A stretch of DNA of 64,000 nucleotides from a virus (taxonomy: Duplodnaviria; Caudoviricetes). The notes beneath the pieces were generated by a model that was given only the letters and a program-made list of their open reading frames with translations, did not search any database and was not told the origin of the DNA. The stretch is from positions 125,180-189,179 of the IMG/VR virus record IMGVR_UViG_3300020577_008610; one strand, given 5' to 3'. This document shows, in pieces, positions 5,695 through 34,662 of the stretch (within the stretch, counting starts at the first letter, position 1; each line of letters opens with the position of its first letter). The translations under genes were made by a program, and so were the position numbers.

Positions 5695-6132
5695 CTAGCT
5701 AATCGGATTGTTTCCGAAGTTTCCTACCACGATGAAGTGGATTCCATCGCTCTTCAGGATGGCAGAAGCACCAACCGTAGCAGCGAAAGTAAGCTTGGCG
5801 CCAGCAACCGAGCCAGAGACCAAGGCAGTTGTTCCTGCGGTTTCCTGGGAGCTGGTAACAATGTGAGCCGAGGCCGAACCAACCCTGAACACAAACTCAG
5901 CTCCGGGACAAGAAGCAGCCGTTGGCAGAACCACGGTCTGAACTCCAGAGCCAGAGATGATATTCACTCCACCGTCACCTGCGGTGAGGGTAGAAGATCC
6001 AATGGTTGGAACCCCGTCAACAGGGAATGGCGCAAAGCCCCGGTTGGCAGTGGTGCGTTCGATGGAAACTCCAGTTTCATCTTTGTAGGTAACTGGACCC
6101 AAAGCAGAGTCGATACGAGTTTTAAGTGGCAT
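5695..6132 (-). CDS. putative virion structural (decoration-type) protein
   Basis: G/S/T/A/V-rich beta protein (TVVLPTAASCPG..F, LKSDG..F); upstream TATTTA motif at 6157-6162. Confidence 0.55.
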   Translation of the reverse strand: MPLKTRIDSALGPVTYKDETGVSIERTTANRGFAPFPVDGVPTIGSSTLTAGDGGVNIISGSGVQTVVLPTAASCPGAEFVFRVGSASAHIVTSSQETAGTTALVSGSVAGAKLTFAATVGASAILKSDGIHFIVVGNFGNNPIS

Positions 6133-14484: not shown

Positions 14485-14763
14485 TTACGAGTCTGAATCG
14501 GGCTGTGTTTTCGGCTTCTTCGCAAGCTTTTGAACAGGCTTGGGAGCTTCCGGTTCAGCAAGAGGGGTTCCATCCGGAAGAGATAGAGCCATGTCCTTCA
14601 TTTCCTGAGGGATAAAAAACTCTCCAGCTTGTTCGATACGAGCAACAACTTCCTGGAATTGGGGCTTATTCTGAATTCCTTCTTGTCTGCACCAACGTTC
14701 AAATGACACCCTTCGACGGTTAAGAAGATGAAGCAGAGAGGTTGGGCCGGTGTTGGGTATCAT
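14485..14763 (-). CDS. hypothetical protein
   Basis: coupled to upstream gene. Confidence 0.6.
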   Translation of the reverse strand: MIPNTGPTSLLHLLNRRRVSFERWCRQEGIQNKPQFQEVVARIEQAGEFFIPQEMKDMALSLPDGTPLAEPEAPKPVQKLAKKPKTQPDSDS

Positions 14764-15068
14764 GGTGCTGTCTTTTCTTTCTTGATTTGATTGTGGATCT
14801 CGAAGAGTACATCCGAAAGAGCTTCGTGGACCTGCTGGTCTTTCAAAGTTCTCTTGATTTGCTCCTCGGTAATTGTAGCTCCCAGTTCTTCCGAGACGTT
14901 CTTAACTAGACGACCCAAGGAATTCATGAGAACATTCCGTGCTGTAGCATGATTCATCTGGTAGCCCGCAGCCGACATGATTTCGGCAATCCGGCGAAAA
15001 TCAGTGCCTTCCTCCAGGGTAACGTACTTGGTGGCAGCAGTCTTGATAGTTTCTGGCGTCTTAGACAT
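14760..15068 (-). CDS. HTH-like protein downstream of sigma factor
   Basis: DFRRIAEIMSAAGYQMNHATARN helix-turn-helix-like; overlaps sigma gene end. Confidence 0.55.
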   Translation of the reverse strand: MSKTPETIKTAATKYVTLEEGTDFRRIAEIMSAAGYQMNHATARNVLMNSLGRLVKNVSEELGATITEEQIKRTLKDQQVHEALSDVLFEIHNQIKKEKTAP

Positions 15069-15882
15069 TGGATCCTTCTCCGGCAGAGTCTTGAATCGAA
15101 GGCACTTTTTGGATCACATCATACCGCAAGAGAATGATATTCCTTTCTCGTTCTGGTAGCTTCAGAAGAGCTCTTTTCACCACTTCAACCAAGGTATGGT
15201 AGTCGGAAACAGAATCGCTGCTAACATCCAACTCATCCACCAACAAGTCCTTGATGGAGAGACCAGTAGATATGCCTTTCCCATGCTGAGCAGGAATGGC
15301 GGTATCCATGGAGGAAATCCACCTGGATTTCAGGGAGTGGTTGATGCTATTGAGCATTTTCTCGGAAACACCGAGTTCTGCCGCATTCCCCTCAACCAAA
15401 TCCTTAAAGCCGAGATTCTTCTCCTTCATGGTCTTCAGAAGCTTGTTCTGAGCTGTCCGGATGTGTGAAGGTACATGGAGCTGAGGATCCTGGGAAAGAA
15501 GGTAGTTGTTGATAGCATGGCGTATCCACCACGTAGCGTAGGTACTGAACTTGAACCCACGGTGAGGGTCAAACTTCTCCACAGCTGACAACAAGCCGAA
15601 AGAACCCTCTTGGAGAAGATCTTCCCGAATACGTTGGTGTTCCTTCTTCTTGGAATAGAATTTGTTGACCACAAAAGTGACCAACTTGCAGTTCCGGTTC
15701 GCAAGAACATTCCTCAGATTCTTGTCTTGTTTCGCCAACTTGCCTTTGGCATCCAATTCTTTCGTCTCGGAATACCGGAAAAACAGCTTCATGTCCTCGT
15801 CTCGATCATCCAGATTCTTTGAAAGAGCCGTAGCCGCTGCTTGAGTTATCACTGATGTTGATGTTTGCTGATATGATTCCAT
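15061..15882 (-). CDS. RNA polymerase sigma70-family factor
   Basis: Region 2: DLLQEGSFGLLSAVEKFDPHRGFKFSTYATWWIRHAI; region 4 starts (LPERERNIILLRY) but the HTH appears truncated. Confidence 0.9.
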   Translation of the reverse strand: MESYQQTSTSVITQAAATALSKNLDDRDEDMKLFFRYSETKELDAKGKLAKQDKNLRNVLANRNCKLVTFVVNKFYSKKKEHQRIREDLLQEGSFGLLSAVEKFDPHRGFKFSTYATWWIRHAINNYLLSQDPQLHVPSHIRTAQNKLLKTMKEKNLGFKDLVEGNAAELGVSEKMLNSINHSLKSRWISSMDTAIPAQHGKGISTGLSIKDLLVDELDVSSDSVSDYHTLVEVVKRALLKLPERERNIILLRYDVIQKVPSIQDSAGEGSNV

Positions 15883-16339
15883 CCCTGTTTTTCCTGCCCT
15901 TTCGAGGCCTTGCTGCCCAGTTCATATAGGATGTAAGGCACTCTGCTCGGATCTTCTCAAACTTTGCCTCATTGATCCTGAGGCAAAGACTCCTTGCCAA
16001 CTTTTTTCCAACCTCCCAGGCTTCAATCTCCTCTTGCACCTTTGCAATTTTGTATGTAACGGTTGCATACCTCAGAGGTTTCCGAACCAACTCCGGATAT
16101 CTGTCCTGGTAAGTAAAATCACACTCCAACATCCATGCATGACCAATTTCATGCAGGAAGATGTAGTAGAGGATTTCAAGCTTTCGTTGTGCATATAGGG
16201 TTATCACCTTATCATGGTACTGATTCTTCCTTTTGTTTGAATACTCTATCCTCCAGGAATGCTGAGAGCAGAACTCAGTCAGACGCTTAATACTCGCCTG
16301 GATCTCCTCTTGGCCTAGTTCGATAGGAAAAAGTGCCAT
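15806..16339 (-). CDS. HExxH metallopeptidase-like protein
   Basis: FLHEIGH...EEIEAW. Confidence 0.6.
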   Translation of the reverse strand: MALFPIELGQEEIQASIKRLTEFCSQHSWRIEYSNKRKNQYHDKVITLYAQRKLEILYYIFLHEIGHAWMLECDFTYQDRYPELVRKPLRYATVTYKIAKVQEEIEAWEVGKKLARSLCLRINEAKFEKIRAECLTSYMNWAARPRKGRKNRDGIISANINISDNSSSGYGSFKESG

Positions 16340-16442
16340 ATGAATAACCTTAAATGTAGCAAGCCCTACATCCCCTTGGGCCATAGAGCAACCTACCATA
16401 CATGCACTGTCATATAAACCAATTTAACCGGACTGAATTTAA

Positions 16443-16488
16443 CTCTTCTCCTTTCTTCCCTCCTCCCCCCCTCTTGGTTATCCTCCAC
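16443..16488 (+). repeat. dispersed repeat copy 1 (pyrimidine tract + TCTTGGTTATCCTCCAC)
   Basis: near-identical cores at 41592-41608 (+) and 53696-53712 (-). Confidence 0.8.
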
Positions 16489-16575
16489 CACCATGGAAAG
16501 TCTGGAAAAAGATTGGCAAAAGCAACAAAACCTAGAAGTTACGCTTTGAAGTTTTCATCGGAATGCTATTCTGAC

Positions 16576-16603
16576 TTGACGTGGGGGTGTTGGTGGTTAA
16601 GAT
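16576..16603 (+). promoter_or_regulatory. sigma70-like early promoter
   Basis: TTGACG-N16-TAAGAT upstream of AAGGAG RBS/ATG 16627. Confidence 0.6.
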
Positions 16604-16626
16604 GGGTTGTGCAAGGAGAAAATCAC

Positions 16627-16887
16627 ATGACAACCCTGATTACCGACAAGCTTAAGGCCCTCGGAGGCCGTTGGGACTCGGCCCGCAAGGGCTGGATGGT
16701 CCCGGACGAAAAGGCTACTGAAGCCCAGGAGCTGGTAAACTCGGCATTCGGACGTCTTCTGGGTTCTGTACACGGTGTGGAGACGATTGTGGTGGTACGG
16801 CCTACCACTGCAACTATGAGTAAGGTGTTTCCTACTCACAAAAGGTTCAGTCGGTGTGACACTTTGGCTTCGGAGATGCTCCCTTAG
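16627..16887 (+). CDS. small early protein (LKALGGRWD...W motif, DUF5710-like)
   Basis: AAGGAG RBS; DKLKALGGRWDSARKGWMVP. Confidence 0.55.
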   Translation: MTTLITDKLKALGGRWDSARKGWMVPDEKATEAQELVNSAFGRLLGSVHGVETIVVVRPTTATMSKVFPTHKRFSRCDTLASEMLP

Positions 16888-16950
16888 CTCAGTGGTTAGA
16901 GCAGCCGCCTTCAAATCGGTTGGTCGTGGGTTCAAATCCTACAGGGAGCG
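16878..16950 (+). tRNA. opal suppressor tRNA (anticodon TCA), probably Trp identity
   Basis: GCTCCCT/AGGGAGC acceptor, G73, D arm GCTC/GAGC, loop CT-TCA-AA (16909-16915), short variable loop, GGTTCAAATCC. Confidence 0.85.
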
Positions 16951-16954
16951 CAAG

Positions 16955-17416
16955 ATGCGTAAAACATGGACTTCATTTAAAGATGACGAATTCATCCCTA
17001 TTGTCGATGAGGCCCTTCAAGAGTTGACCAGAGAAGAGTGTGACCTCGAAAAGGAGCCAAATTTGTCCTACATGTTTTCCCGTTATCCCAAATGGGAAAA
17101 GGTAAATCTTCTCTATGTGTGCAAAAATGCTAAGAATGGGAGCAAGAAAGGGATCATCAATCTTGATGTCGCCGACAGCATTGTCCTTCTTGACAAGGAA
17201 TGCCTTGTTGTCAATTATTGCAAAGTAGTAGCTTTTGAGCCTCGCAGCGAATGGGTTGTGTTCAATTACATAGTCCAAGCCCACTGGAAAGAGGGTAAAC
17301 TTCAAGTTTGTGCTGATATTGCCCCAAAAGATGAAGATTTGGAAGAACTTGACCCTCTGTTTGAACATTACTTGAGCTTGGAAGAAACGACCACACGTTG
17401 CGTGTGCAAGACATGA
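16955..17416 (+). CDS. hypothetical protein
   Basis: ORF begins right after the tRNA. Confidence 0.6.
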   Translation: MRKTWTSFKDDEFIPIVDEALQELTREECDLEKEPNLSYMFSRYPKWEKVNLLYVCKNAKNGSKKGIINLDVADSIVLLDKECLVVNYCKVVAFEPRSEWVVFNYIVQAHWKEGKLQVCADIAPKDEDLEELDPLFEHYLSLEETTTRCVCKT

Positions 17417-17649
17417 TGGTTACCATGCTCATCCAGCTCAAAGGCAAGACCAAGACATAGATGAGGTGAAAGAAGCTGCTGGACTTTTGAATTGCTACAA
17501 GCTAGACATCAATGACCCCAAAGTCCAAAAGGTATTCCATGACTTTGGTGGTCAATTTGACATCAAGCAAAAAACCATTTTTACGATTAGCTCATACGAG
17601 AAGCAACACCGGAGCCCGGGAATGGGCCAAGAAGGGAAGAGAGAAGAAT

Positions 17650-18015
17650 ATGGCATCCAGCAAAAAAACCAAAAAACGTACTTTTGCCTGCGGACATAAA
17701 GGTTATGGCATTTTGTGTCACCGATGTGCCCAGGCAAATGACCTGGAGACTAAGGCTAATGAGTTGGCCCAAGCAATCAAGGCTCAGGCGAAAACCCTCC
17801 CCGCCTTCGTAGTGGTCCAAAAGGCCGCCAAGGCTACGGAGACGGCTCCGGAATTGGAGTCGGGCATTCTGATCAAGGGTGGGGGTCAGCGCATCTTCAT
17901 CGGGACCAATAACAAGGACCAGGAGACAGCCCTGACCCAGGCTGTGGCTACCATGCGGGAGCATGCTACCCGCCTGGAGGCACGGCCAGAGAACAAGGTT
18001 CGTGTCTTCTCGTAA
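17650..18015 (+). CDS. hypothetical protein with N-terminal CGH...CHRC Zn motif
   Basis: FACGHKGYGILCHRC. Confidence 0.6.
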   Translation: MASSKKTKKRTFACGHKGYGILCHRCAQANDLETKANELAQAIKAQAKTLPAFVVVQKAAKATETAPELESGILIKGGGQRIFIGTNNKDQETALTQAVATMREHATRLEARPENKVRVFS

Positions 18016-18195
18016 CTGGGATGACTCCGGCATTATCTGGGTATAATAGCAAATGTCGATGAATCCTCCTTGCGGAACCTTGATTGAGGGTGAAGACCCT
18101 GCTCTGACCATGAAAAAAGAATTGGAAATCGACAATAACTGAAGGCAGCCGATATCTATCGGCGCTACTCTTGAAAGGTTGACAAAACGATACAT

Positions 18196-18284
18196 GGAGA
18201 GTTGCTAGAGCCGGGCAATAGTCCTGTTTGCTAAACAGAGGACAGCCTTAATTGGCTGCGGGGGTTCGAGTCCCTCACTCTCCG
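18196..18284 (+). tRNA. tRNA-Ser(GCT)
   Basis: GGAGAGT/ACTCTCC acceptor, TT-GCT-AA loop, long variable arm. Confidence 0.9.
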
Positions 18285-18293
18285 CTAAGAAAG

Positions 18294-18325
18294 AAACTCC
18301 AGGATCTTCGGGTTCTGGAGTTTTT
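18294..18325 (+). terminator. intrinsic terminator
   Basis: AAACTCCAGGATC-TTCG-GGTTCTGGAGTTTTT. Confidence 0.75.
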
Positions 18326-18339
18326 ACATTTGAACTTTA

Positions 18340-18579
18340 GTGATTAGTTTGCTCGTCAAGACCGAAAGGGATGTCAAAGAGGCTTTTCCTCAACAGGAAG
18401 CCAAGTATGCCCGTAGGCTTGCCCAGAAGGCGCAGGAAGCCGAGTTCAAGGATCTGAAGGACTATCCCATCTCCCTCCAGCTTTCGAGCCCTGGAAGGAC
18501 TCCCAGACTCAAGGAAGAATACCTCGGAGACCTTACCTTCGATGCTTTCAGGGAGCGAAGGGCAATTGGAAGGAAGTGA
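18340..18579 (+). CDS. hypothetical protein
   Basis: 79-aa ORF. Confidence 0.4.
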   Translation: MISLLVKTERDVKEAFPQQEAKYARRLAQKAQEAEFKDLKDYPISLQLSSPGRTPRLKEEYLGDLTFDAFRERRAIGRK

Positions 18580-18628
18580 GCGGCTATCTTGAGAATCGTT
18601 CTCAGGGTGAGAAAATCCAAGGGGGAAA

Positions 18629-19612
18629 TTAGGAGAACAGGTGGCGACAGATGGCCGACCCTCTATGTTCTAGGTGCTTCCATTTGGTCTTGAAGGAATC
18701 CGTGTTGGTACCGCCAAAAAGTGTTGCATCGGAATGTACCTCGGCTAGACCAGCAAGCAGCAGAGCTGCTTCTTCAGGTCTTTTGCTGAACTCTTTCGCT
18801 TCTTTAGCGGATAAACAGTGAAGATCCATGTCCATCTCGATTAGTCGAGCTACCTCTTTCTGCTCGGGATAGAGTTCACGGAAAATCTGAGCGGATATCT
18901 TGGCATGATTGGGGTAATAGACCTTGCCCTCAGCGTCAACCTCACGGCAGAAAGGTTTGCCGCAATCATGCCATAAAGCGTACTTCTCAAGGATGTGATC
19001 CGGAGGAAGTTTCTCTTGAAGCTTCTTGCCATAGGCCATGAGCCACTGTGGAAATCTCCATTGTTTCTGGTAGGAGTAGTGAGGATCCCGAAGGAACTGA
19101 AGAAGATCAAGCAGGTGTTCTTTGACAGATCCGCCGTGTTGAAGTATGTTCTGTCCAGAAGTCTGCTGGGTATTCTCCATGGCTTCCACCACTTCAAACT
19201 TCCTCTTCAGACGCTCCGGAGCACCTTCATTCACCCTTTTCCCAGCCAGAGGAAGACCAGAACAAACCTTCTTTACGTCAGGCCCAGGAACTATTGAAAT
19301 GGCTGTCAACTCATTCCCAATGTCAGGCTCTCGGAACTCGGCAAACCGAATCCCCTTTTCTTTGAGCTTCAGAGAGAATTCAATGAGCTTCAGCTCATTG
19401 GGAACGTTCAGGCAGATTACGGAGTTGCTGGTCCGATACCACTCTTTCCACTCTTCAGGGAAGGATGCTGCAAACTCCATGGCAGCGTGTGTTGTCTGTG
19501 GAACTTGGTAGCCGGTAGGTAGGTCAGAATGGGTCACAACATAGAGTTTGTGGCCAGTCTGTTCAGACAGGGGGAGTTGAACAAGAATTCAAGCTTCGTG
19601 GTTGGTGTTCAT
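18629..19612 (-). CDS. Pth2-like peptidyl-tRNA hydrolase fused to HD domain; in-frame TGA at codon 8 (readthrough candidate)
   Basis: ATG 19612 with purine-rich GAAGAGAA leader: MNTNHEA*ILVQLPLSEQTGHKLYVVTHSDLPTGYQVPQTTHAA...FREPDIGNELTAI...LPLA, then WHDCGKP...HAKISA...DMDLH; TGA at 19591-19589. Confidence 0.8.
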
Positions 19613-19686
19613 TTCTCTTCTATTTTGTAGATATTCGGGACGGTTGTCTTGATGTTTCGGATCAGAAAGAGTTAGAGTTCATCTCA

Positions 19687-20061
19687 TCAATGTTCAGCAT
19701 CGAACTCCTGGACCTCATACCATCCGATGTTCAGGCAGTCCATAATCTCTCCTGCCTTCTCGTCGGAAATATTGTTTGGGACACGGGTGGTAGCCCAGTC
19801 CAGGTCAGTTAGAGGATCACCCGTCAGTAGCTCACAAAGCTTGCTATACTTGCCTGGAAAGCAAATGTCCGAGATGTTATTCTCATCCCCCGCATAGGAA
19901 CCAAGGCTAATTCCCTTGACTTCCTTGATATTCAGGTTTCGAGCATATTGCTCAGCGGATACTTTTTTGCTGAATACCCTTTTATTGGTACCACCAGACC
20001 TGTGATAGAATTGGTCGTCATACTCCCAATTTGCCTCAACCACAATGTAGACTTTACCCAT
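19687..20061 (-). CDS. hypothetical protein
   Basis: 124-aa ORF. Confidence 0.6.
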   Translation of the reverse strand: MGKVYIVVEANWEYDDQFYHRSGGTNKRVFSKKVSAEQYARNLNIKEVKGISLGSYAGDENNISDICFPGKYSKLCELLTGDPLTDLDWATTRVPNNISDEKAGEIMDCLNIGWYEVQEFDAEH

Positions 20062-20384
20062 GGCCCCAATCTAACACTGAGGCCACAGGAAATCAACCTG
20101 TCATCTTCCGGAGAGTAGCTCCAAGGAGTGCTTGGTAGGGCCCCGGAAAGGCCACAGAAATGTGGTACCGAGGGTTGGTTGGGTTGTGAGAGAAGTTAGC
20201 ATTCAAGATGCCAATGAACCTGACAATGCCCACTCTTTGACCATTTTTCTCAGCCAAGAGTTGATCCCCAGGCACAAGTTGCGGTTGGGGGACTTGGAAG
20301 TGCCCCTGAACCAAAATGCCATTCTGAAACGGGATAGAATTTTCTACCAAGAACATACTACACCTGCTGCCCATACTTATGGGT

Positions 20385-20711
20385 ATGAAAAAGTTGGAAT
20401 TTTACTCTATCATTCGGGAAGCAGTCAAGAATGCCTTGATAGAAGCTTTGGACTACCATGGAATGGAAGAGCCAAAGGAAATCCGCAAGGCAAGGTTGGC
20501 AGGCAGAGCGCAAGCACGAGCAAAGCTAGCAGGAAAAACACCCGCAGAGCTAGAACAAGCTTATTTGGCTATTGAAAGGCAGTCAGAGAGGGAATATGAG
20601 GACCCTATCAGAAGCGAATACCTCCTGGGAGCTAGAGAGCAAGTTCGAGACATGCTGAAGAAGCTTGGTCGTGGACTTCCGAAAAGGTCACAAGATCCCT
20701 GGACCCGCTAA
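20385..20711 (+). CDS. hypothetical protein with N-terminal IIREAV leader
   Basis: MKKLEFYSIIREAVKNALIEA; TACTTA at 20374-20379. Confidence 0.65.
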   Translation: MKKLEFYSIIREAVKNALIEALDYHGMEEPKEIRKARLAGRAQARAKLAGKTPAELEQAYLAIERQSEREYEDPIRSEYLLGAREQVRDMLKKLGRGLPKRSQDPWTR

Positions 20712-26410: not shown

Positions 26411-26485
26411 TGGCTCACAGGGAGGGAGTCGAACCCCCACCGAGGCAAGTTACAGCTTGCTGCCCTACCATTGGGCGACCTGTGA
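26411..26485 (-). tRNA. atypical tRNA, Asn-like body with 6-nt anticodon loop (CTGTAA)
   Basis: TCACAGG/CCTGTGA-G-CCA, GCAAG-ctgtaa-CTTGC, GGTTCGACTCC. Confidence 0.65.
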
Positions 26486-27913: not shown

Positions 27914-28003
27914 TGGTGCCGAATGGATTCGAACATTTGCTGTTACAACTCTCTATTCCAGGTCTTGCAAATAGAGCGTTCTATCCACCGTGGTACTCGG
28001 TCA
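27914..28003 (-). ncRNA. degenerate tRNA-like element with 16-nt anticodon loop
   Basis: GGATAGAAC D-like, CTCTA-[TTTGCAAGACCTGGAA]-TAGAG, GTTCGAATC, ends CCA; weak acceptor stem. Confidence 0.35.
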
Positions 28004-28205
28004 CTTGCTGACGAAAATCACAGATTTGAGCAGTCTTTTCTCGATGCTGTTCCTGAGCCTTGTTGGCCTTCAGGTACTTGCAGTGAGAACATTTCCGACT
28101 CGAACATCCGTGAAAAACCCTTCCAACCCACTCTGGTGGAATCTCCACGAGCTTGCCACGACGCATCCGGTAGAACTTTCCATCTTTCTCGATTCGCTTT
28201 GACAT
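27981..28205 (-). CDS. small basic protein
   Basis: MSKRIEKDGKFYRMRRGKLVEIPPEWVG. Confidence 0.6.
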   Translation of the reverse strand: MSKRIEKDGKFYRMRRGKLVEIPPEWVGRVFHGCSSRKCSHCKYLKANKAQEQHREKTAQICDFRQQVTEYHGG

Positions 28206-28220
28206 TGGTCTTCCAACCTT

Positions 28221-28290
28221 TCGAGCTGGCGGGGATCGAACCCGCATCCTCAGTGTACTTTGGGCCTATAGGTTGCCCTCGGTTTTAGCC
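28221..28290 (-). ncRNA. tmRNA-like 3' end (T arm + acceptor strand)
   Basis: GAGGATGCGGGTTCGATCCCCGCCAGCTCG resembles the tmRNA 3' terminus GGACGCGGGTTCAACTCCCGCCAGCTCC. Confidence 0.35.
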
Positions 28291-28358
28291 AGCATAGATG
28301 CCAGTCAAGACCAGGGGTGTATTCCGGTTCCACCACAACCCTACTGGGTTGGAAGTTG

Positions 28359-28455
28359 TTAGCCTGGAGGGATTCGAACCCTCATACTCGGCTTCTAAGC
28401 TTGCCTGTGGCGAAGCCATTGAAGACCGCTGCCTTTGCCATTAGCCTACAAGCTC
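28359..28455 (-). ncRNA. tRNA-bodied RNA with 32-nt anticodon loop (Leu-like)
   Basis: AGCTTG/CAGGCT acceptor, GAGGG-TTCGAAT-CCCTC, GCGGT-[32 nt]-GCCGA. Confidence 0.55.
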
Positions 28456-28598
28456 TTGAGATGAAGTTTGCAAAAATTGCCCCCTTTCTCCTGTTGTTGC
28501 CTCAGCTCGTTGCCAACCTTCATGGGGGGATTGAGCCCCCTAGCTCTCTGTATTGGGCGAAAAGGGTCTGGTGTTGACAACAAGGAAAAAGTGAGTCC

Positions 28599-29030
28599 TT
28601 ATATTAACTTGGCTGCCCTGTAGTCCTTACGGCTCCAAGTCCTTGTACGATGACAGTTGGCACAAACCAACTCGCATTTGGCAACTTCCTCCCACATTCC
28701 TTGGCCGCTTCCGTTACGGATGAAATTAGAGACGTTATCAGCCTTTTGTGCTCTGTCCACGTGATCAAAATCCATGATGAAATGCGGGAAGAAGTTGCCG
28801 CAATCCTTGCATGGATGCTTTTCTTTGTACTCCCTCAAGGCTTCGAGGGCCCTCTGCCTTGTTCTCTTTCGAGATTCAGAGTACTCCTTTTTGTGGCGTT
28901 GAAAGTGAGAAGCTGTGAGCTTCGCAATGCACGATTTGCACTGCCGTACCCGCCTCTTGTCTTTTTTGGAGGCCCAAGAAAACAGCTCTTCTTCCTTTTC
29001 TTCACCGCACTTGATGCAAGTTTTCAACAT
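28599..29030 (-). CDS. HNH endonuclease-like protein with N-terminal Zn ribbon
   Basis: KTCIKCGEEK...CKSC; PCKDCG...MDFDH...EVAKCELVCANCHRTRT; paralog of 31055..31486. Confidence 0.85.
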   Translation of the reverse strand: MLKTCIKCGEEKEEELFSWASKKDKRRVRQCKSCIAKLTASHFQRHKKEYSESRKRTRQRALEALREYKEKHPCKDCGNFFPHFIMDFDHVDRAQKADNVSNFIRNGSGQGMWEEVAKCELVCANCHRTRTWSRKDYRAAKLI

Positions 29031-29157
29031 GAAAAAGCGTAACTCCAAGGGGGTACATTGTCAAGCGATGGCGTTGAACTTTGATTGAATCCAGCTGATC
29101 GGACTCGAATCTTCATTCTATTTCCCGATGATCGGATAGGATTCAATTAGCGCTTTG

Positions 29158-29240
29158 TGCTCAAGAGGGGAATCGAACCCCTACGCCCTTTCGGACACAG
29201 GCTTCTGAGACCTGCACGGCTTCCTTTACGTCACTTGAGC
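29158..29240 (-). tRNA. tRNA-Leu(CAG)
   Basis: GCTCAAG/CTTGAGC-A, CAGGT-CT-CAG-AA-GCCTG, long variable arm. Confidence 0.9.
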
Positions 29241-29302
29241 ATTCAAACATGGCAAAGTTGCTTTGAGGGAGAAGTCGCCATGTTTTAAGTTATATGAGAC
29301 AG

Positions 29303-29376
29303 TGTTCCCGGTGGGATTCGAACCCACAACATCTTCTTTTTGAGAGAAGCGACTCTGCCGGTTGGTCTACGAGAAC
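29303..29376 (-). tRNA. tRNA-Leu(CAA) with short variable loop
   Basis: GTTCTCG/CGGGAAC-A, CTTCT-CT-CAA-AA-AGAAG, variable ATGTT. Confidence 0.85.
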
Positions 29377-29413
29377 ATACAAATACAATCGTTCACTGAT
29401 GAGTTATTTGTCA

Positions 29414-29487
29414 GGTAGGCGTAGATGGAATCGAACCATCGCTCTCTCGGTTATCAGCCAAGTGCTTTTCCATTAAGCTATACGCCT
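29414..29487 (-). tRNA. tRNA-Ile(GAT)
   Basis: AGGCGTA/TACGCCT-A, CT-GAT-AA. Confidence 0.9.
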
Positions 29488-29639
29488 GTTATGCATGATT
29501 TGATGGAAATTTGAGCGCATCACCATGCTAGTAAATGTAGTTTGATGTCGAGATTCTGCATCAAGCAATTGCTCTAACCACAGAGCGTAGCTTCCTGAGC
29601 TACAATCCAACAAAGTGTGTGCTTCTGCCCATGAATGCT

Positions 29640-29942
29640 GGTCCCGTTTAAGGGGTATTTAACCCCCTTTGGTTTTGTTCTGGCTCCTATCCGAGCCTAG
29701 GATGCTGTGGCATCCTTAGCAACCGGATGGACGCTGTGTTGCTGGTCAGGCTCCACAGGAGCAATGAAATTGCTCACGATTTAATGGTTTGTTCAATTAA
29801 GCCAGGCTCCCTCAGCCTTCTGCTTTTTGCTACCAGGGAAAAGTTTTCACTCTTTTCCTCTGTCTGCCACCACAAGGTACTTTCACCTACAAATCGCTTC
29901 GTAAGGTTACTCCCACTAGGAGAGTCGAGGTCTCGCAACCCC
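29640..29942 (-). ncRNA. structured non-coding region, possible divergent tmRNA 5'/tag portion
   Basis: starts GGGGTTG...TCGAC 18 nt after tRNA-Gln; many hairpins; reading frame ...SENFSLVA. Confidence 0.3.
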
Positions 29943-29959
29943 GTAGGGCAGATGCACAG

Positions 29960-30031
29960 TTCGGGCGGGTGGATTCGAACCACCATAACAGGTTTCAGAG
30001 ACCTGGGTCCTAACCGTTGGACGACACCCGA
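29960..30031 (-). tRNA. tRNA-Gln(CTG)
   Basis: CAGGT-CT-CTG-AA-ACCTG; GGTTCGAATCC. Confidence 0.9.
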
Positions 30032-30089
30032 ATAATCTGGAACCTAGGCTGACTAAGCCTAGGTCGTTGTGGGAGGGTTGCTTGGTCCC

Positions 30090-30296
30090 TCAAGAGACTT
30101 GTCGTTTTGTTTCTACTTTACACATACAGTGCAGGTTCTCGAATTTCTTCACTTGCTCCAAGAGCTTCTCTGGATCCTTCTCTACTAGCTTTGCCTTGAT
30201 TTGACAACGTTTACATGATGCGTCAATCGTTGTCGCATCTGCGTTCGATAACTCTAGCTTAATCCACCGGTAAACCCTTGATGTTGCTGTTGGCAT
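30090..30296 (-). CDS. small Cys-containing hypothetical protein
   Basis: CKRC...HCMC. Confidence 0.4.
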   Translation of the reverse strand: MPTATSRVYRWIKLELSNADATTIDASCKRCQIKAKLVEKDPEKLLEQVKKFENLHCMCKVETKRQVS

Positions 30297-30328
30297 TGAA
30301 CTAGTGTAACCACCGTTTTATCTTCTTG

Positions 30329-31012
30329 TCAACCTGCTTCTTCAATCTCTCTCAGAATCGCTTCAGCAGCCTTCTGAGGGTCTTGGGCATCCCGGATAGG
30401 TCGACCTACCACCAGGAGGTCTGCGCCGTCTCTAATGGCTTGCCGAGGGGTTCCTGTGGCCTTCTGATCGCTATTCTGCGAACCAGCGGGACGAATGCCT
30501 GGGATCAAGAAGAAATGACCGAGGTAGTTGAGTCTTCCTTCTGCGACTTCCTTGGGGGAGCACACGAACCCATGGGCTCCCTTGGCCATGTGCATCAGGT
30601 CTTGGACCACCACTTTCCGCTCGTGGTTGTAGACCTTGAGGCAGTCTGCATCATCCAGGGAAGTCATAGCCGTCACAGCCAGGATCATGGGACCACTTCG
30701 AGAGGCTTCAACAGCCGCTTGGATCATAGTTGAGCCGCCTGAAGCATGGATGGTCATGAAGTCAGCTCCAAGATTCATCCCTTGTTTCACAGCCCGAGAG
30801 ACTGTTTCGGGAATGTCATGAAGCTTGAGGTCCAGGAAGCACTTGGCTCCCGATTCCTTCACCATCTCCACAACTTCAGGACCTTCAGAGATGAAGAGCT
30901 CCAAGCCAACCTTAAAAGTGCCGACATAGCCCCTGAGTTGACGAACAAAAGAGCGGGCTTCAATGATGTTGGGAACATCAAGAGCAAAACAGAGCCGGTC
31001 TTGAGCAGCCAT
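30329..31012 (-). CDS. pyrF: orotidine-5'-phosphate decarboxylase
   Basis: ALD, FKVGLELF, FLDLKLHDIPETV, TIHASGG, PGIRP, VVGRPI. Confidence 0.97.
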   Translation of the reverse strand: MAAQDRLCFALDVPNIIEARSFVRQLRGYVGTFKVGLELFISEGPEVVEMVKESGAKCFLDLKLHDIPETVSRAVKQGMNLGADFMTIHASGGSTMIQAAVEASRSGPMILAVTAMTSLDDADCLKVYNHERKVVVQDLMHMAKGAHGFVCSPKEVAEGRLNYLGHFFLIPGIRPAGSQNSDQKATGTPRQAIRDGADLLVVGRPIRDAQDPQKAAEAILREIEEAG

Positions 31013-31054
31013 TAACTGTACCTTCCAAAAAGAAAGTGAGATGACATAGTAATC

Positions 31055-31486
31055 TTACTTCTTCGCCAAATCCCAATCTTTCCGAGTGTGGGTTCTAATC
31101 CTATGGCAATTTGAACACACAAGATCGCACTTGGCAATTTCACTCAGAACTATACCTAGCACTTCACTCCGGATGAGTCGAGCTATCCCGTCTTTTTTCT
31201 CTGCTCGATCTCGATGGTCAAAATCCATTACATAGTATGGGTACTGTCTTCCGCAATCCATGCAAGGCTTTGATTCCTTGAGCTTTACGATCTCCTTCAT
31301 GACAGAAGCTCGTCTTTTGGCTGACTTTTCCGCGTACTGTTGTTTGTATTTCTGGTAATGCTCCTTGATGGTAGTGGCCATGCACTCTTTGCATCGAGTG
31401 CTGCGTTTGCCAGCGGCTTTGCTTTGGAGCGAGAACTGTTCGATGGTCTTCTCGACACTACATTTGGTACAGGTTTTGACTTCCAT
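31055..31486 (-). CDS. HNH endonuclease-like protein with N-terminal Zn ribbon
   Basis: KTCTKC...CKEC; PCMDCG...MDFDHRD...EIAKCDLVCSNCHRIRT. Confidence 0.85.
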   Translation of the reverse strand: MEVKTCTKCSVEKTIEQFSLQSKAAGKRSTRCKECMATTIKEHYQKYKQQYAEKSAKRRASVMKEIVKLKESKPCMDCGRQYPYYVMDFDHRDRAEKKDGIARLIRSEVLGIVLSEIAKCDLVCSNCHRIRTHTRKDWDLAKK

Positions 31487-31495
31487 ATCCTACTC

Positions 31496-31750
31496 CTAGT
31501 GTCCGTAGTTGCAGCCAACCAGAATGACCTTTCCGGTTTCGGGATGGACCAAGCGCCTATCGTAGGTGCCACAGCAGCCATCATCACGGATGGCTTCATA
31601 AGCTGAGACCTCGACAGGATCGTCGGCAGAAGCAATCCGCATGTTATCAACACAGGACTCTTCCTCCATGTCAGAACGAAGAACAGAAAAGGCCCAATCG
31701 ATTTCCATTTGAGAGAGTGTCATACCCAGAAGATGCATCGGCACTCTCAA
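31496..31750 (-). CDS. hypothetical phage protein
   Basis: DNMR.A...GCCG.YD...GCNYGH pattern. Confidence 0.6.
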   Translation of the reverse strand: MRVPMHLLGMTLSQMEIDWAFSVLRSDMEEESCVDNMRIASADDPVEVSAYEAIRDDGCCGTYDRRLVHPETGKVILVGCNYGH

Positions 31751-31969
31751 AAGGTCAATGCCCAGGCAACAAGAAACATCACAGCGTGCAAGAGGCCCAT
31801 GGCGTGTGGTGATTTTAACTTGAAACTTGCAACCCCTCGGGGTAACTCTCCCCGAGATGCCCAGGAGTCCTTAAGTTTGATGTAGGGTATATCCTGGTCT
31901 CCAAGTCCTTGCTGTTGCAAGGATTGGTGCTTCCCCATGCGAACCTAACCCCAGATGGGGTCACTGTGA

Positions 31970-32046
31970 TGGTAGCGGGTCCGGGAATTGCACACCGGGA
32001 TCTCATGGGTATGAGCCATGCGAGATAACTTCTTCTCCAACCCGCA
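31970..32046 (-). tRNA. tRNA-Met(CAT), initiator-like
   Basis: 1:72 mismatch, GCGGGT/ACCCGC, CATGG-CT-CAT-AC-CCATG, CCA. Confidence 0.8.
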
Positions 32047-32051
32047 ATAGA

Positions 32052-32771
32052 TTAGAAACTTCCGAACTCGGGTTCACCTTTGAACCCTGGCAGCCTCTTC
32101 TTAGCATACTCGATCCATGCCATCAAGAGGTTGTCGGTGAAATCTTCAGCTTCCTCTCGGGAGATTTGCTTCTTCTTCTGCAAGTCCCGGAAAAGCTCTC
32201 CCTTCTTGTCCTGCATCACCTGAAGGAGAGGAATCTTCTGGGTTTTGGCTTGTTTGTACATGCCCATCACCCAGGCTTCCACCTCGTGGGGTGCAAAGAA
32301 GTAGTTGTAAGCGGCATCCGTGGTGGCGTAGTGATCCGCTCCAGGCTCATATCCTGGATGTCCAGAGAGTCCAGGGTCCGTGAAGTGGATGCCTTGTTCT
32401 GGTCCTTCGTGGCCGCTTCTCTGGTCTTGCCTGTAGTGCTCCAGCTCATGCCGGATGGTGTTCTTCAGGGTGGGAATGAACTCAGAGAGTTGACGGTCAT
32501 TGAACTCAAAAGGCACAGCAACGTACACCTGGAGCCTGCGAATGGCATCGTTGTAGCCTCCACCAGCTTGGCGAAGGGGACCATTGTACCGCTTGAACTG
32601 AGCCTGAAGCAACAGGTCGTTGACCTGTCCCTTGAAAGGAGGAATCTCTTCCTGGTCCCGGTTCTTCTTCAGGTGATTCACAATCACCCTGGAGACTTGG
32701 GTGGTCAGGTTGTCCATGACCCCTTCACGGATTGCTTCTCGAATGAGTGCTACCAGCTCTCGCTTCTTCAT
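32052..32771 (-). CDS. zincin-like (HELEH) protein with N-terminal leader
   Basis: MKKRELVALIREAIREG; IRHELEH...YFFAPHEVEAW; TAATTA at 32782-32777. Confidence 0.7.
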   Translation of the reverse strand: MKKRELVALIREAIREGVMDNLTTQVSRVIVNHLKKNRDQEEIPPFKGQVNDLLLQAQFKRYNGPLRQAGGGYNDAIRRLQVYVAVPFEFNDRQLSEFIPTLKNTIRHELEHYRQDQRSGHEGPEQGIHFTDPGLSGHPGYEPGADHYATTDAAYNYFFAPHEVEAWVMGMYKQAKTQKIPLLQVMQDKKGELFRDLQKKKQISREEAEDFTDNLLMAWIEYAKKRLPGFKGEPEFGSF

Positions 32772-32958
32772 GCTGGTAATTATGAACAAAGGACCATTGC
32801 CGGTCTTGTTATCTTGCAACACCCTTTGGCCCGTGCTGGGTTACTCAAGTGATGCACCAACTAACCGAGCGGTCAAGCTGCTTTGAGAGCTACTAAAGCA
32901 AATTGAACCGCTGAGCCCCTGTTTGCCTAGGATATAACAGGCGCTTCTATTCATCCAG

Positions 32959-33033
32959 TGGGCCTCCCGGGATTTGAACCCGAACTTGACGGATTAAGAG
33001 TCCGCTGTGCTAAACCGTTGACACCAGAAGCCC
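32959..33033 (-). tRNA. tRNA-Lys(CTT)
   Basis: CGGA-CT-CTT-AA-TCCG; GGTTCAAATCC. Confidence 0.9.
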
Positions 33034-33243
33034 ATTAGGAAACGGTTGGGGTTATCGTGCTACCGCTTCACAAGCACCCAGGTTCTCCCACTGTCCTGGC
33101 AGTGTTCAGCCCAGGAGTAACCTTTTAAGGGGGTACCTGAGCCTATTGGTCGGGAGATGGTGGTCCTTGCCACCTCCTTGGTTCCAAGGTTGGTCTCAAT
33201 CCAGATTTCAGGGGCCCATATACTGGCCAGCGTTGAATTGAGA

Positions 33244-33319
33244 TGGTAGCCCCTGTGAGGATTGAACTCACCTGTACCGGTTTGTAGGACCGGCGCCCTC
33301 ACCAGAGTGCGAAGGAGCT
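33244..33319 (-). tRNA. tRNA-Val(TAC)
   Basis: CCGGT-CC-TAC-AA-ACCGG; AGCTCCT/AGGGGCT-A-CCA. Confidence 0.8.
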
Positions 33320-33321
33320 AA

Positions 33322-33810
33322 ACTGATTATTTCCGAGTCATTCCCGGCGCAGTACCACTTCCAAGGTTGCTTTCGCTTCACCTTAGAGGGCCTGTTTCCC
33401 ACCCTTTGCGGAATGGTAAGCCGTCTTTACTCGCTGGTTATCACCCTACAGGGCTACGTGCTCCCTGCTCGGCAACCCATGAGCCACATTAGTAACCCCA
33501 ATCCCAGGGCGTGGTTACCAGAAATTGACTTCTGGCTGGTGTCAAATACTCCCGATTTTCATCGTACGGACCAGGAGTGTTTGGCCACTCCCTGACATAC
33601 AGGATCTCTGTCTAGGTCCTAGAGGTTATTTTACGTCGGATTAGCGACGTTCCGTTGCCCAGTTTGGGCAACCAGGCATGAACCTTTTAAGGTTCCGGAA
33701 TTGAGGTTGGTTTCTCTTGAGTCTGTCAGCACCTCAAAACTGACAGAAAGAGACTAGTTGTCAAAGAGCAAAGAGTCCTCGGACTCTTGGAGGGAGCAGC
33801 CCTCCGACGT
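33322..33810 (-). ncRNA. large, highly structured ncRNA candidate (GOLLD/ROOL-like context)
   Basis: ~490 nt without a credible ORF, >10 hairpins incl. GNRA-capped GC-GAAA-GC and CCATTCC-GCAA-AGGGTGG, immediately upstream of tRNA-Val. Confidence 0.55.
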
Positions 33811-34019
33811 TTTTAAACTTAGCATCGGTCTCTTTGGCCGTCAAGGCGACCGGTTACGATTTCACTCCAAGAAGCGCTCGAAGCCAATCGGCCTTGGTGA
33901 GCACCATGTAAAGCACAGTGAGTCCCAGGAAGACCAGGACGAAAGCAAGGGCTCCAACGAGCCAAGAGAGAGCGGTTTTCAGTGCGGACGGAATTTCCAT
34001 GAGGTTCTCCTAGCTGTAA

Positions 34020-34439
34020 TTAAGGCTCCTTCTCCGTCTTCGCTTCCTTTAGTTCTGGCAACCAGCCAGTGTACCCACATTCGTGCGGACAAGGCTCAAG
34101 GTGAAGCCCAGACCACTTCCCCTTGTGCTCGGGACAGGGTTTGGTTCGAAGCTTCTCTCCACCGTAGACCAATCGTGCCAAGAGATCGCTTTTATAGATG
34201 TGAAGCTTGATATCCTCGAAGTGTGGAATAATCCTAGCCCCCCAAACATCCCGGATTGCTGCCTTCTCGCCCTTCTCCTTCTTGACCTGGCGGTACTTGT
34301 CTTCCAGCACCTTCATCCAGGCTTCAAAAGCAGCACAGTAGTAACTAACAGGCGCCACCCGTTCACCAAAGTGGACCTCCAATTCTTGGAGCATCTCTTG
34401 GGCCTCTGCTTCAGATAGCTTTTTGTTCTTTATTGCCAT
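34020..34439 (-). CDS. hypothetical protein with C-terminal Cys/His motif
   Basis: KPCPEHKGKWSG...PCPHECGYTGWLP. Confidence 0.65.
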   Translation of the reverse strand: MAIKNKKLSEAEAQEMLQELEVHFGERVAPVSYYCAAFEAWMKVLEDKYRQVKKEKGEKAAIRDVWGARIIPHFEDIKLHIYKSDLLARLVYGGEKLRTKPCPEHKGKWSGLHLEPCPHECGYTGWLPELKEAKTEKEP

Positions 34440-34633: not shown

Positions 34634-34662
34634 AAATACCTGCTTTTCAGCAGAAGGAACCG

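What the first reader, a model, noticed from the sequence alone, without database searches (positions are those of the whole stretch)
18629..19612. Peptidyl-tRNA hydrolase/HD gene gated by an in-frame UGA at codon 8
Seen: the ORF track starts this gene at GTG 19537, in the middle of the first Pth2 beta-strand (KLYVVT.SDL). Upstream in the same frame is ATG 19612 with a purine-rich leader, reading MNTNHEA-TGA-ILVQLPLSEQTGHKLYVVT..., so the intact domain needs readthrough of TGA 19591-19589. A UCA-anticodon tRNA lies ~2.7 kb away from that codon, yet many other genes end at TGA, so the genome is not globally recoded. Known: Pth2-fold enzymes recycle peptidyl-tRNA; HD domains are phosphohydrolases often found in RNA end-healing. 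Inference: this may be a translational sensor or switch. The rescue enzyme would be made only when UGA is read through, either because the phage suppressor accumulates or because host RF2/termination is impaired. That is when peptidyl-tRNA and damaged tRNA would build up. This is the best candidate in the window for an undescribed system.
Basis: partly seen in the sequence, partly recalled or inferred. Interest (0 to 1): 0.9.

Follow-up and report, generated by a model that had tools for sequence, protein, structure and literature searches.

The report
Suppressor-tRNA-gated phage tRNA-hydrolase gene
A large standard-code phage keeps a deliberate UGA stop eight codons into a tRNA-end-processing enzyme gene and carries its own UGA-reading tRNA, and dozens of distant phages do the same with UAG and a UAG-reading tRNA, so the enzyme is most likely made only when the phage's own tRNA overrides the stop.

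Summary
On the minus strand, ATG 19612 plus six sense codons runs into TGA 19591-19589. The same frame then continues into a Pth2-like/HD protein with no usable start. GTG 19537 lies inside beta-strand 1 and is absent in relatives.

The TGA is not an error. Three independent metagenome assemblies carry the identical leader. Eight diverged relatives keep x-N-H-E-x-TGA-ATT, with mostly synonymous changes on both sides.

A tRNA(UCA) scoring 66 bits lies 2.6 kb away, and relatives carry one or two copies.

The design is widespread: about 40 distinct phage loci have RBS-ATG, one or two codons, then TAG in front of the homologous gene. These include the cultured phages pT24, XacN1, CBB, fHe-Yen9-04, Arash, ME3 and RsoM2USA. 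A tRNA(CUA) was found in six of them; RsoM2USA was not scanned.

Agrobacterium phage Atu_ph07, which has tRNA(UCA), uses TGA. No gate and tRNA mismatch was seen. Canonical Pth2 paralogs and ungated family members show no such pairing. Some loci also carry a TAG inside the fold, which reinitiation cannot explain.

Best reading: a translational gate that depends on the suppressor tRNA. Why this enzyme is gated remains inferred. I found no publication describing it. This scan found amber and ochre versions earlier on other DNA. Nothing here is experimental.

The parts
19613..19623 (-). Purine-rich ribosome-binding-like stretch (ATAGAAGAGAA) directly upstream of the leader ATG
   Evidence: Sequence read and context print. 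Homologs have clear GAGGA/AGGAG motifs 6-9 nt before the leader ATG, not before the codon after the stop.
19592..19612 (-). Leader: ATG plus six sense codons (M-N-T-N-H-E-A)
   Evidence: The leader is conserved as x-N-H-E-[A/M/T] in eight diverged relatives, with synonymous changes (AAC/AAT, CAC/CAT).
19589..19591 (-). In-frame gate codon TGA, followed by ATT (A at +4)
   Evidence: TGAATT is invariant in the alignment of eight clade members. It is identical in three independent assemblies.
18629..19588 (-). Pth2-like/HD open reading frame after the gate (319 codons plus TAA)
   Evidence: Translation. phrog_14850 matches at E 6e-64. Sixty-three homologs were found. The AlphaFold2 model has pLDDT 93.
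19244..19549 (-). Pth2-like domain (residues 14-115 of P0002)
   Evidence: PF01981 scores 27.9 bits against a cut-off of 23. The family profile hits Pth2 structures at E 4e-14. Foldseek gives TM 0.74-0.76 to 2zv3/3erj, and VIA gives Z 14.4 to 1wn2.
18635..19225 (-). HD(IG)-type phosphohydrolase domain (residues about 122-318)
   Evidence: PF01966 scores 18.8 bits, below its cut-off of 22. H151, H207-D208 (WHDCGKP), H228 and D253 are invariant. VIA gives Z 14.9 to the class II tRNA nucleotidyltransferase 3wfo_A and Z 9-11 to HD proteins.
19535..19537 (-). GTG used by the ORF track; rejected as the start
   Evidence: It lies inside beta-strand 1. The codon is GTA or ATT in relatives L106 and L107.
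16878..16951 (+). tRNA with anticodon UCA (opal suppressor), the proposed reader of the gate
   Evidence: ARAGORN and RF00005 at 66.4 bits. It has a 7-bp acceptor stem, a short variable loop, G73 and loop CU-UCA-AA. tRNA(UCA) lies within 10 kb of the gene in 11 of 12 clade loci.

Best explanation
The gene is a translational gate that depends on a suppressor tRNA. Ribosomes start at ATG 19612, translate six codons and meet UGA. Release factor 2 ends translation there unless the phage's own tRNA(UCA) decodes the UGA. The inserted residue is probably Trp, inferred only from the anticodon and G73. After readthrough, the ribosome continues in frame and makes the full Pth2-like/HD protein. Output therefore follows the ratio of charged suppressor tRNA to release factor. 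The protein has a Pth2-fold domain and an HD phosphohydrolase domain most like the body of class II tRNA nucleotidyltransferases. From this I infer that it acts on tRNA acceptor 3' ends, removing acyl or peptidyl groups and phosphate-type blocks. Shown by comparison: the gate, its conservation, and the matching of stop codon to tRNA anticodon. Inferred: that readthrough happens in vivo, which residue is inserted, the substrate, and the purpose. Plausible purposes are a timer or feed-forward coupling to phage tRNA expression, or a feedback that holds suppression at a set level.
For: 1. No alternative start exists. Nothing canonical lies between the TGA and beta-strand 1, and GTG 19537 is inside the strand and not conserved.
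2. The segment right after the TGA evolves as coding sequence. Window versus L106 over 13 codons shows about 7 synonymous-type codon changes against 3 replacements. The leader keeps N-H-E through synonymous changes.
3. TGAATT is invariant among eight diverged relatives while the flanks vary.
4. The same architecture recurs in about 40 distinct TAG-gated contexts across very different phages.
5. Stop and anticodon match, with no mismatch in 33 informative contexts. TAG goes with tRNA(CUA) in 26 contexts (24 gated, plus 2 where a canonical start follows the stop). This includes pT24, where CUA is 1 of only 3 tRNAs. TGA goes with tRNA(UCA) in the window clade and, independently, in Atu_ph07 (PMC6102473).
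6. Negative controls behave as expected. Canonical Pth2 paralogs in RsoM2USA and Xoo-sp13 have plain ATG starts, and the Atu_ph07 one shows no stop before its domain. An ungated family member sits in a complete 176-kb genome that has 28 tRNAs and no suppressor.
7. Four loci carry an in-frame TAG inside the conserved fold (L039, L057 and L064 in addition to the gate; L069 in place of it), which only readthrough can bridge.
8. When the Pth2-like and HD parts are separate genes, each has its own gate. When the domain order is reversed, the gate moves to the new 5' end.
9. The base after the stop is always a purine, A in 44 and G in 7. From my own knowledge (Bossi 1983; Miller and Albertini 1983), that context favours suppression.
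10. In the complete pT24 genome this is the only long ORF with such a TAG leader.
Against: Nothing is experimental. Expression and charging of the tRNA, readthrough itself and the full-length protein are all unobserved. TGA ends about a quarter of this phage's long ORFs, so an efficient opal suppressor should be costly, which argues for weak or controlled suppression. In LR745206 both genes are TAG-gated, but I found no tRNA(CUA) among 57 tRNAs or by pattern scan. Sixteen of 40 TAG-gated contexts have no suppressor within the flank held, though these are not whole genomes. In five contexts a canonical start follows the stop within a few codons (L058, L111, L113, L114, IkeLoa), so there the gate may be bypassed by reinitiation. 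ATT follows the stop in 29 of 51 gates, which also fits a weak reinitiation codon. The window's tRNA is on the opposite strand and 2.6 kb away, not co-transcribed as in some amber loci.
Confidence: 0.8

Rival explanations
1. The leader is an ordinary tiny upstream ORF. Ribosomes terminate at the stop and reinitiate at the adjacent ATT, or another near-cognate codon, without any suppressor tRNA. The in-frame arrangement follows only from that adjacency.
For: ATT follows the stop in 29 of 51 gates, and ATA, ATG or GTG in three more. Several loci have a canonical start a few codons after the stop (L058, L111, L113, L114, XacN1). LR745206 has gates but no detected suppressor.
Against: It does not explain why the stop type matches the phage's suppressor anticodon. 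It fails where the next codon is AAT, AAC or GAG (14 of 51 gates), or ACC in XacN1. It cannot bridge TAGs inside the fold. It does not explain why ungated members sit in genomes without suppressors.
Confidence: 0.09
2. The gate senses release factor rather than the phage tRNA. UGA is read by host near-cognate tRNA-Trp when RF2 is limiting, as in prfB logic, and the tRNA(UCA) serves other purposes.
For: An early in-frame stop measures termination efficiency by construction. TGA-A is not a strong termination context (my own knowledge). The gate output must depend on RF2 as well as on the tRNA.
Against: Every clade with the gate also carries the matching suppressor, often abutting the gene and sometimes in two copies. 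The ungated complete genome lacks one. A pure RF sensor needs no tRNA.
Confidence: 0.05
3. Translation simply starts at GTG 19537, as the ORF track says. The upstream ATG...TGA is a chance in-frame feature.
For: GTG is a canonical start, and the ORF track lists 18629..19537.
Against: GTG 19537 is V18 inside beta-strand 1 of a confident model. It has no purine-rich stretch in front. It is GTA or ATT in close relatives, whose next canonical start lies deep in the domain. The 13 codons upstream evolve as coding sequence.
Confidence: 0.03
4. The gene is a pseudogene or an assembly error: a nonsense mutation in a decaying gene.
For: A single in-frame stop is what a fresh nonsense mutation looks like.
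Against: The leader is identical in three independent samples. The stop is conserved across relatives of 60-94% identity whose ORFs are otherwise intact. The same feature occurs in cultured, viable phages.
Confidence: 0.01
5. The UGA encodes selenocysteine.
For: ARAGORN labels the tRNA 'SeC' because of its UCA anticodon.
Against: The tRNA has a 7-bp acceptor stem and a short variable loop, and is 74 nt long. It therefore lacks the tRNA-Sec hallmarks of an 8-bp acceptor and a long arm (my own knowledge). Sister clades use TAG with CUA at the same place. The position lies in a disordered N-terminal tail.
Confidence: 0.01

Closest known systems
Stop-codon-recoded phages with their own suppressor tRNAs (code 15 crAss-like and Lak phages, code 4 phages; bioRxiv 10.1101/2021.08.26.457843; PMC9523058)
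   Same: A phage infecting a standard-code host encodes a suppressor tRNA that reads in-frame stops in phage genes. It has been proposed that this delays or controls translation of a subset of genes.
   Different: In those phages, hundreds of in-frame stops are spread through late genes and the stop is effectively reassigned. Here the genome keeps the standard code, with TGA ending 45 of 167 long ORFs. The stop sits at codons 2-9 of one small operon, and it switches between TAG and TGA together with the tRNA anticodon.
prfB (RF2) autoregulation through an in-frame UGA near the 5' end (PMC12421855)
   Same: An early in-frame stop in a translation-factor gene acts as a built-in meter of termination efficiency at that stop.
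   Different: prfB is rescued by a +1 frameshift at a slippery site with an internal SD, and its product is the factor being measured. Here the frame is unchanged, the rescuer is a dedicated tRNA, and a feedback of the enzyme on that tRNA is only a hypothesis.
Orphan suppressor tRNAs of cultured jumbo phages (XacN1, PMC5852040; Atu_ph07, PMC6102473; phiKp24, PMC8386662)
   Same: These are the same tRNAs. The papers report CUA, UCA or UUA suppressors in standard-code jumbo phages.
   Different: The papers found no target. The XacN1 authors read through 18 amber-ending genes and state that they could not identify targets. The gate at the 5' end of XacN1 ORF364 and of an Atu_ph07 Pth2-like gene supplies a candidate target. 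phiKp24 has no detectable member of the family.
Archaeal/eukaryotic-type peptidyl-tRNA hydrolase Pth2 (PF01981; 2zv3, 1wn2, 1xty, Bit1 1q7s)
   Same: The fold is the same (TM 0.7-0.76, Z 14.4). The Asp and Thr of the D-x-G-x-T region and the Q..HA helix are conserved.
   Different: The GKGK loop lysine of canonical Pth2 is replaced by P-x-G-Y/Q in most members. The domain is fused or paired with an HD domain. Canonical Pth2 paralogs coexist ungated in the same phages.
HD domain of class II tRNA nucleotidyltransferases (A. aeolicus enzyme 3wfo; the E. coli CCA-adding enzyme HD domain has 2',3'-cyclic phosphodiesterase and phosphatase activity, from my own knowledge of Yakunin et al. 2004)
   Same: It is the best structural match of the C-terminal domain (Z 14.9, 165 residues, 19% identity). 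There is also a sequence hit at E 1e-3. The H...HD...H...D metal ligands are kept.
   Different: There is no nucleotidyltransferase head or neck. The activity is untested.

Membership tests
Pth2 (PF01981) peptidyl-tRNA hydrolase | Pfam model match above the gathering score | tested here: met
   The match scores 27.9 bits against a cut-off of 23, over residues 14-108 and profile positions 2-108 of 115. The family profile A1 hits 2zv3 at E 4e-14.
Pth2 (PF01981) peptidyl-tRNA hydrolase | Pth2 alpha/beta fold | tested here: met
   The AlphaFold2 model has pLDDT 93. Foldseek gives TM 0.74-0.76 and rmsd 2.2-2.8 to 2zv3 and 3erj. VIA gives Z 14.4 to 1wn2 over 106 residues.
Pth2 (PF01981) peptidyl-tRNA hydrolase | Catalytic residues (Lys of the GK loop, Asp and Thr of D-x-G-x-T; residue roles recalled from the S. 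solfataricus work, so from memory) | tested here: inconclusive
   Asp89 and Thr95 are nearly invariant or invariant. The GK lysine is replaced in the window protein (PTGYQ) and in most members, and is kept only in Atu_ph07.
Pth2 (PF01981) peptidyl-tRNA hydrolase | Hydrolysis of peptidyl-tRNA | not testable with these tools
   This needs an enzyme assay.
HD phosphohydrolase superfamily (PF01966) | H...HD...D metal-binding motif | tested here: met
   H151, H207-D208 (WHDCGKP, HDIG-like), H228 and D253 are invariant in 22 homologs.
HD phosphohydrolase superfamily (PF01966) | Pfam model above the gathering score | tested here: not met
   The match scores 18.8 bits against a cut-off of 22. The fold search nevertheless places the domain among HD proteins at Z 8-15.
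Suppressor-tRNA-gated Pth2-like/HD module (unpublished; found earlier by this scan with TAG and TAA) | RBS-ATG, a short leader and an in-frame stop directly before the domain, with no canonical start in between | tested here: met
   Window sequence. Forty-six of 62 distinct homologous contexts share it.
Suppressor-tRNA-gated Pth2-like/HD module (unpublished; found earlier by this scan with TAG and TAA) | A suppressor tRNA in the same phage whose anticodon matches the gate stop | tested here: met
   tRNA(UCA) at 16878-16951 paired with a TGA gate. The clade-wide match is, and no mismatch occurs.
Suppressor-tRNA-gated Pth2-like/HD module (unpublished; found earlier by this scan with TAG and TAA) | Readthrough actually occurs and depends on the tRNA | not testable with these tools
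   No reporter, proteomic or ribosome-profiling data are available.
Globally recoded phage (code 4) | TGA used as a sense codon throughout coding genes and rare as a terminator | tested here: not met
   TGA ends 45 of 167 long ORFs. Translating with code 4 fuses neighbouring genes.
Selenoprotein gene | tRNA-Sec architecture (8-bp acceptor stem, long variable arm) | tested here: not met
   The tRNA has a 7-bp acceptor stem, a short variable loop and is 74 nt long.

The most novel reading that the evidence does not exclude
The module is a closed control loop. The early stop measures how much charged suppressor tRNA is active relative to release factor. The Pth2-like/HD enzyme made by readthrough then acts back on the 3' end of the suppressor tRNA, by deacylating it, by recycling its short peptidyl form, or by healing or blocking its end. 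Stop-codon suppression would thus be held at a set level in a phage whose own genes still end in that stop. This would be a tRNA-based counterpart of prfB autoregulation. It would also mean these suppressor tRNAs exist mainly as regulatory molecules rather than decoders.
Probability: 0.2. Interest if true: 0.9.

Novelty: new variant of a known kind. Interest (0 to 1): 0.8.

Why it matters
Suppressor tRNAs in standard-code jumbo phages have been reported repeatedly without a known target. The XacN1 authors looked and found none (PMC5852040). The Atu_ph07 and phiKp24 papers leave the role open.

This finding gives those tRNAs a specific, conserved target. The prediction that stop and anticodon match held in an independent lineage: Atu_ph07 has TGA with UCA. 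The question becomes directly testable in cultured phages with reporters, anticodon and stop swaps, and mass spectrometry.

The finding also means gene callers systematically truncate or miss this gene. It offers a natural, compact, orthogonal translational switch. It may also represent a minimal, single-operon stage on the road to full stop-codon reassignment in phages.

Tried and rejected
- **Read support for the TGA.** Independent assemblies were used instead.
- **Nucleotide search of the phage collection** with 3 kb around the gene: no match.
- **First IMG/VR scan with the whole protein** gave only distant hits. The 13-sequence alignment was too diverse for pattern making. Two sub-alignments worked.
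- **Genome-wide search for other TGA-gated genes in the 189-kb record.** Many chance candidates appeared and none could be resolved without gene models. In flanks of related loci, no other gated family emerged beyond the Pth2-like and HD genes.
- **RAPP/RGPP-type arrest leaders**, reported by earlier notes for some amber operons: none within 10-26 kb of the window.
- **tRNA(UCA) as a mutated copy of the phage tRNA-Trp(CCA).** It is not. The best paralogs are Val and Arg tRNAs at about 71% identity. The suppressors of different phages do not form one conserved tRNA lineage.
- **phiKp24** (published UUA suppressor) has no family member detectable with profile A1.
- **LR745206.** No tRNA(CUA) was found among 57 tRNAs or by pattern scan, and one pattern hit was not a tRNA.
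- **Mycobacteriophage Pth2-like genes.** They have RTG-TAG-GTG, but the SD spacing favours the GTG after the TAG. I left them as ambiguous and did not count them as gated.
- **Literature.** Five full-text searches found no description of the gate.

Full report
**What is in the window**

On the minus strand the sequence reads ATAGAAGAGAA-ATG(19612) AAC ACC AAC CAC GAA GCT TGA(19591-19589) ATT CTT GTT CAA ... It runs on without a further stop to TAA 18631-18629. The 319 codons after the TGA (P0002) match Pfam PTH2 over residues 14-108. That is profile positions 2-108 of 115, at 27.9 bits against a cut-off of 23. A weaker HD match covers residues 186-256, and phrog_14850 matches at E 6e-64.

The only canonical start after the TGA is GTG 19537, which is residue 18. 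An AlphaFold2 model built on 22 homologs has mean pLDDT 93 and pTM 0.88. It puts beta-strand 1 at residues 15-20, with residues 1-5 disordered.

ARAGORN finds 24 tRNA genes in the window, including one with anticodon UCA at 16878-16951 on the plus strand. This tRNA scores 66.4 bits on Rfam tRNA. It has a 7-bp acceptor stem, a short variable loop, G73 and a CU-UCA-AA loop. It is therefore neither a tRNA-Sec nor a copy of the phage tRNA-Trp(CCA).

The record is a 189-kb virus fragment. TGA ends 45 of its 167 long ORFs, and code 4 fuses neighbouring genes. The genome uses the standard code.

**The stop is real and selected**

Reads could not be consulted. A protein search found a clade of relatives at 60-94% identity. 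Gene callers had started these either at an internal Met (MEFAA...) or at a Met just after the stop.

I fetched 12 encoding contigs. All 12 have the same design. Three independent JGI samples carry a leader identical to the window. Seven further diverged sequences read M-x(1-6)-[N-H-E or similar]-x-TGA-ATT.

In the nucleotide alignment, TGAATT is invariant while the flanks vary. Between the window and L106, the 13 codons after the TGA differ mostly by synonymous changes. The N-H-E of the leader is also kept through synonymous changes. Both sides of the stop therefore evolve as translated sequence in one frame.

GTG 19537 is GTA or ATT in relatives. A tRNA(UCA) lies within 10 kb in 11 of the 12 loci, in two copies in three of them.

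**The same gate with TAG in distant phages**

A tblastn search of GenBank phages found homologs in jumbo phages of many hosts. In every one I opened, the annotation was truncated or fragmented. The DNA showed an SD-like motif, ATG, one to three codons, then TAG, and then the homologous frame. The phages were:
- Tenacibaculum phage pT24
- Xanthomonas phages XacN1 and Xoo-sp13
- Yersinia phage fHe-Yen9-04
- Pectobacterium phage CBB
- Salmonella phage Arash
- Acinetobacter phage ME3
- Ralstonia phage RsoM2USA
- four uncultured huge phages

Two IMG/VR scans added 48 loci. A profile-based census over all material gave 62 distinct gene contexts:
- 40 are TAG-gated and 6 are TGA-gated, with no canonical start before the domain.
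- 5 have a leader and stop followed shortly by a canonical start.
- The rest are ungated, or are second pieces of genes that carry an internal stop.

Leaders are 1-2 codons in the TAG groups and mostly 4-8 codons in the TGA clade. The base after the stop is always a purine (A 44, G 7). From my own knowledge, that context favours suppression.

**The stop matches the tRNA**

Every TAG-gated cultured phage that I scanned carries a tRNA(CUA). In pT24 it is one of only three tRNAs. XacN1 has two. In fHe-Yen9-04 and CBB it lies 2.5-3 kb away. In Arash and ME3 it lies about 450 nt away.

In IMG/VR loci a CUA tRNA lies within 6 kb in most cases. In several the tRNA 3' end abuts the leader ATG.

As a test, I took Agrobacterium phage Atu_ph07, which is published to have a UCA suppressor (PMC6102473). 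Its Pth2-like gene is gated by ATG plus five codons plus TGA ATT. Its only suppressor among 30 tRNAs is UCA.

Across the census, TAG goes with CUA in 26 contexts and TGA with UCA in 7, with no mismatch.

The controls behave as expected. Canonical Pth2 paralogs in RsoM2USA and Xoo-sp13 start at plain ATGs, and the Atu_ph07 paralog shows no stop before its domain. An ungated family member lies in a CheckV-complete 176-kb genome with 28 tRNAs and no suppressor. In the complete pT24 genome this is the only long ORF with such a TAG leader.

**Against reinitiation**

Four loci carry an in-frame TAG inside the conserved fold, with homology continuing in frame after it. Three have it in addition to the gate. 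One has a normal ATG start and only the internal TAG. Only readthrough can produce an intact domain there.

When the Pth2-like and HD parts are separate genes, each has its own gate. In XacN1 and Xoo-sp13 the domain order is reversed and the gate sits at the new 5' end. The codon after the stop is AAT, AAC or GAG in 14 of the 51 gates and ACC in XacN1. None of these can initiate.

Reinitiation may still contribute where a canonical start follows closely.

**What the protein is**

The N-terminal domain has the Pth2 fold (TM about 0.75 to 2zv3 and 3erj; Z 14.4 to 1wn2). The family profile finds Pth2 structures at E 4e-14. However, the GK-loop lysine of canonical Pth2 is replaced in most members.

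The C-terminal domain keeps the HD ligands: H151, H207-D208 in WHDCGKP, H228 and D253. Its best structural match is the body of a class II tRNA nucleotidyltransferase (3wfo_A, Z 14.9). Next come HD proteins, including the tRNA-binding HD domain of GlyRS beta.

The gene sits among tRNA genes and, in relatives, near PNKP, RNA ligase and NUDIX genes. I infer an enzyme acting on tRNA acceptor ends. This is inference only.

**Why gate it**

This is not resolved. The gate makes output follow the ratio of charged suppressor tRNA to release factor. Three readings are possible:
- a delay or feed-forward tie to phage tRNA expression
- a safety valve that stops production of a potentially harmful aminoacyl-tRNA hydrolase when charged tRNA falls
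- a feedback that keeps suppression low in a phage that still ends genes with that stop

The cost argument favours weak, controlled suppression, since TGA terminates a quarter of this phage's long ORFs.

**Open exceptions**

LR745206 has gates but no detected CUA tRNA. L085 has a TGA-bounded ORF with no ATG leader and no suppressor. Mycobacteriophages have RTG-TAG-GTG, where the SD spacing favours the later GTG. phiKp24 has a published ochre suppressor but no family member.

**Novelty**

Five full-text searches found no description of the gate. The XacN1 paper states that its authors could not identify targets of its suppressors.

Earlier agents of this scan found amber and ochre versions on other DNA and reached the same reading. 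I saw those notes only after my own analysis. The present window adds the opal version and the Pth2-HD fusion.

The general idea that phage suppressor tRNAs control genes with in-frame stops is known from recoded phages. I therefore class this as a new variant of a known kind.

Noticed in passing
L064 about 6094-6096; L039; L057; L069 (IMG/VR and GenBank loci): In-frame TAGs lie inside the conserved Pth2-like fold. In L069 such a TAG replaces the N-terminal gate. Each is followed by A or G, and tRNA(CUA) is present in the flank where the flank is long enough.
   Followed up: partly
L027 12420-13378 (pT24 191520-192478) and L001 1453-1464: Tenacibaculum phage pT24 has only three tRNAs: one CUA suppressor and two Ile(UAU). 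Its gate reads ATG AAA TAG ATA, so both unusual codons of the gate are read by the phage's own tRNAs.
   Followed up: no
L013 1834-2485 (LR745206): An ORF of about 215 aa is inserted between the separately gated Pth2-like and HD genes. No tRNA(CUA) was detected in this 635-kb genome among 57 tRNAs.
   Followed up: partly
L041 and L042 (mycobacteriophages Phabba and IkeLoa): A start-stop RTG-TAG lies directly before the annotated GTG start of the Pth2-like gene, with tRNA(CUA) 100-250 nt downstream. The SD spacing favours the later GTG, so this may be a vestigial or different form of the gate.
   Followed up: partly
L030 7048-8622 (XacN1 36047-37621): Two tandem tRNA(CUA) genes lie next to a phage tmRNA gene in the terminal repeat.
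   Followed up: no
window 26411-26485: ARAGORN calls an odd tRNA with a two-base 'anticodon' (gt). First-reader notes list several tRNA-like genes with expanded anticodon loops at 27914-36748.
   Followed up: no
window 18196-18285: ARAGORN calls a tRNA-Ser(GCU) here, but the Rfam gathering scan of 16000-20500 did not list it.
   Followed up: no
L085 about 5990-6010 (IMG/VR 3300037010_001382, 126 kb): A Pth2-like ORF is bounded by TGA, with no in-frame ATG leader and no canonical start before beta-strand 1. The apparently complete genome has 12 tRNAs and no suppressor.
   Followed up: partly
L096 11138-11216: An Arash-like phage carries a tRNA(UUA) in addition to its tRNA(CUA) and its TAG-gated gene.
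   Followed up: no
window 14760-15882 and relatives L103-L114: A Sigma70_r2-only sigma factor gene, Bax1-I, thioredoxin and N6/N4 methyltransferase genes are syntenic with the gated gene across the clade. PNKP, RNA ligase, NUDIX, Amidoligase_2 and GGACT genes lie upstream in relatives.
   Followed up: no
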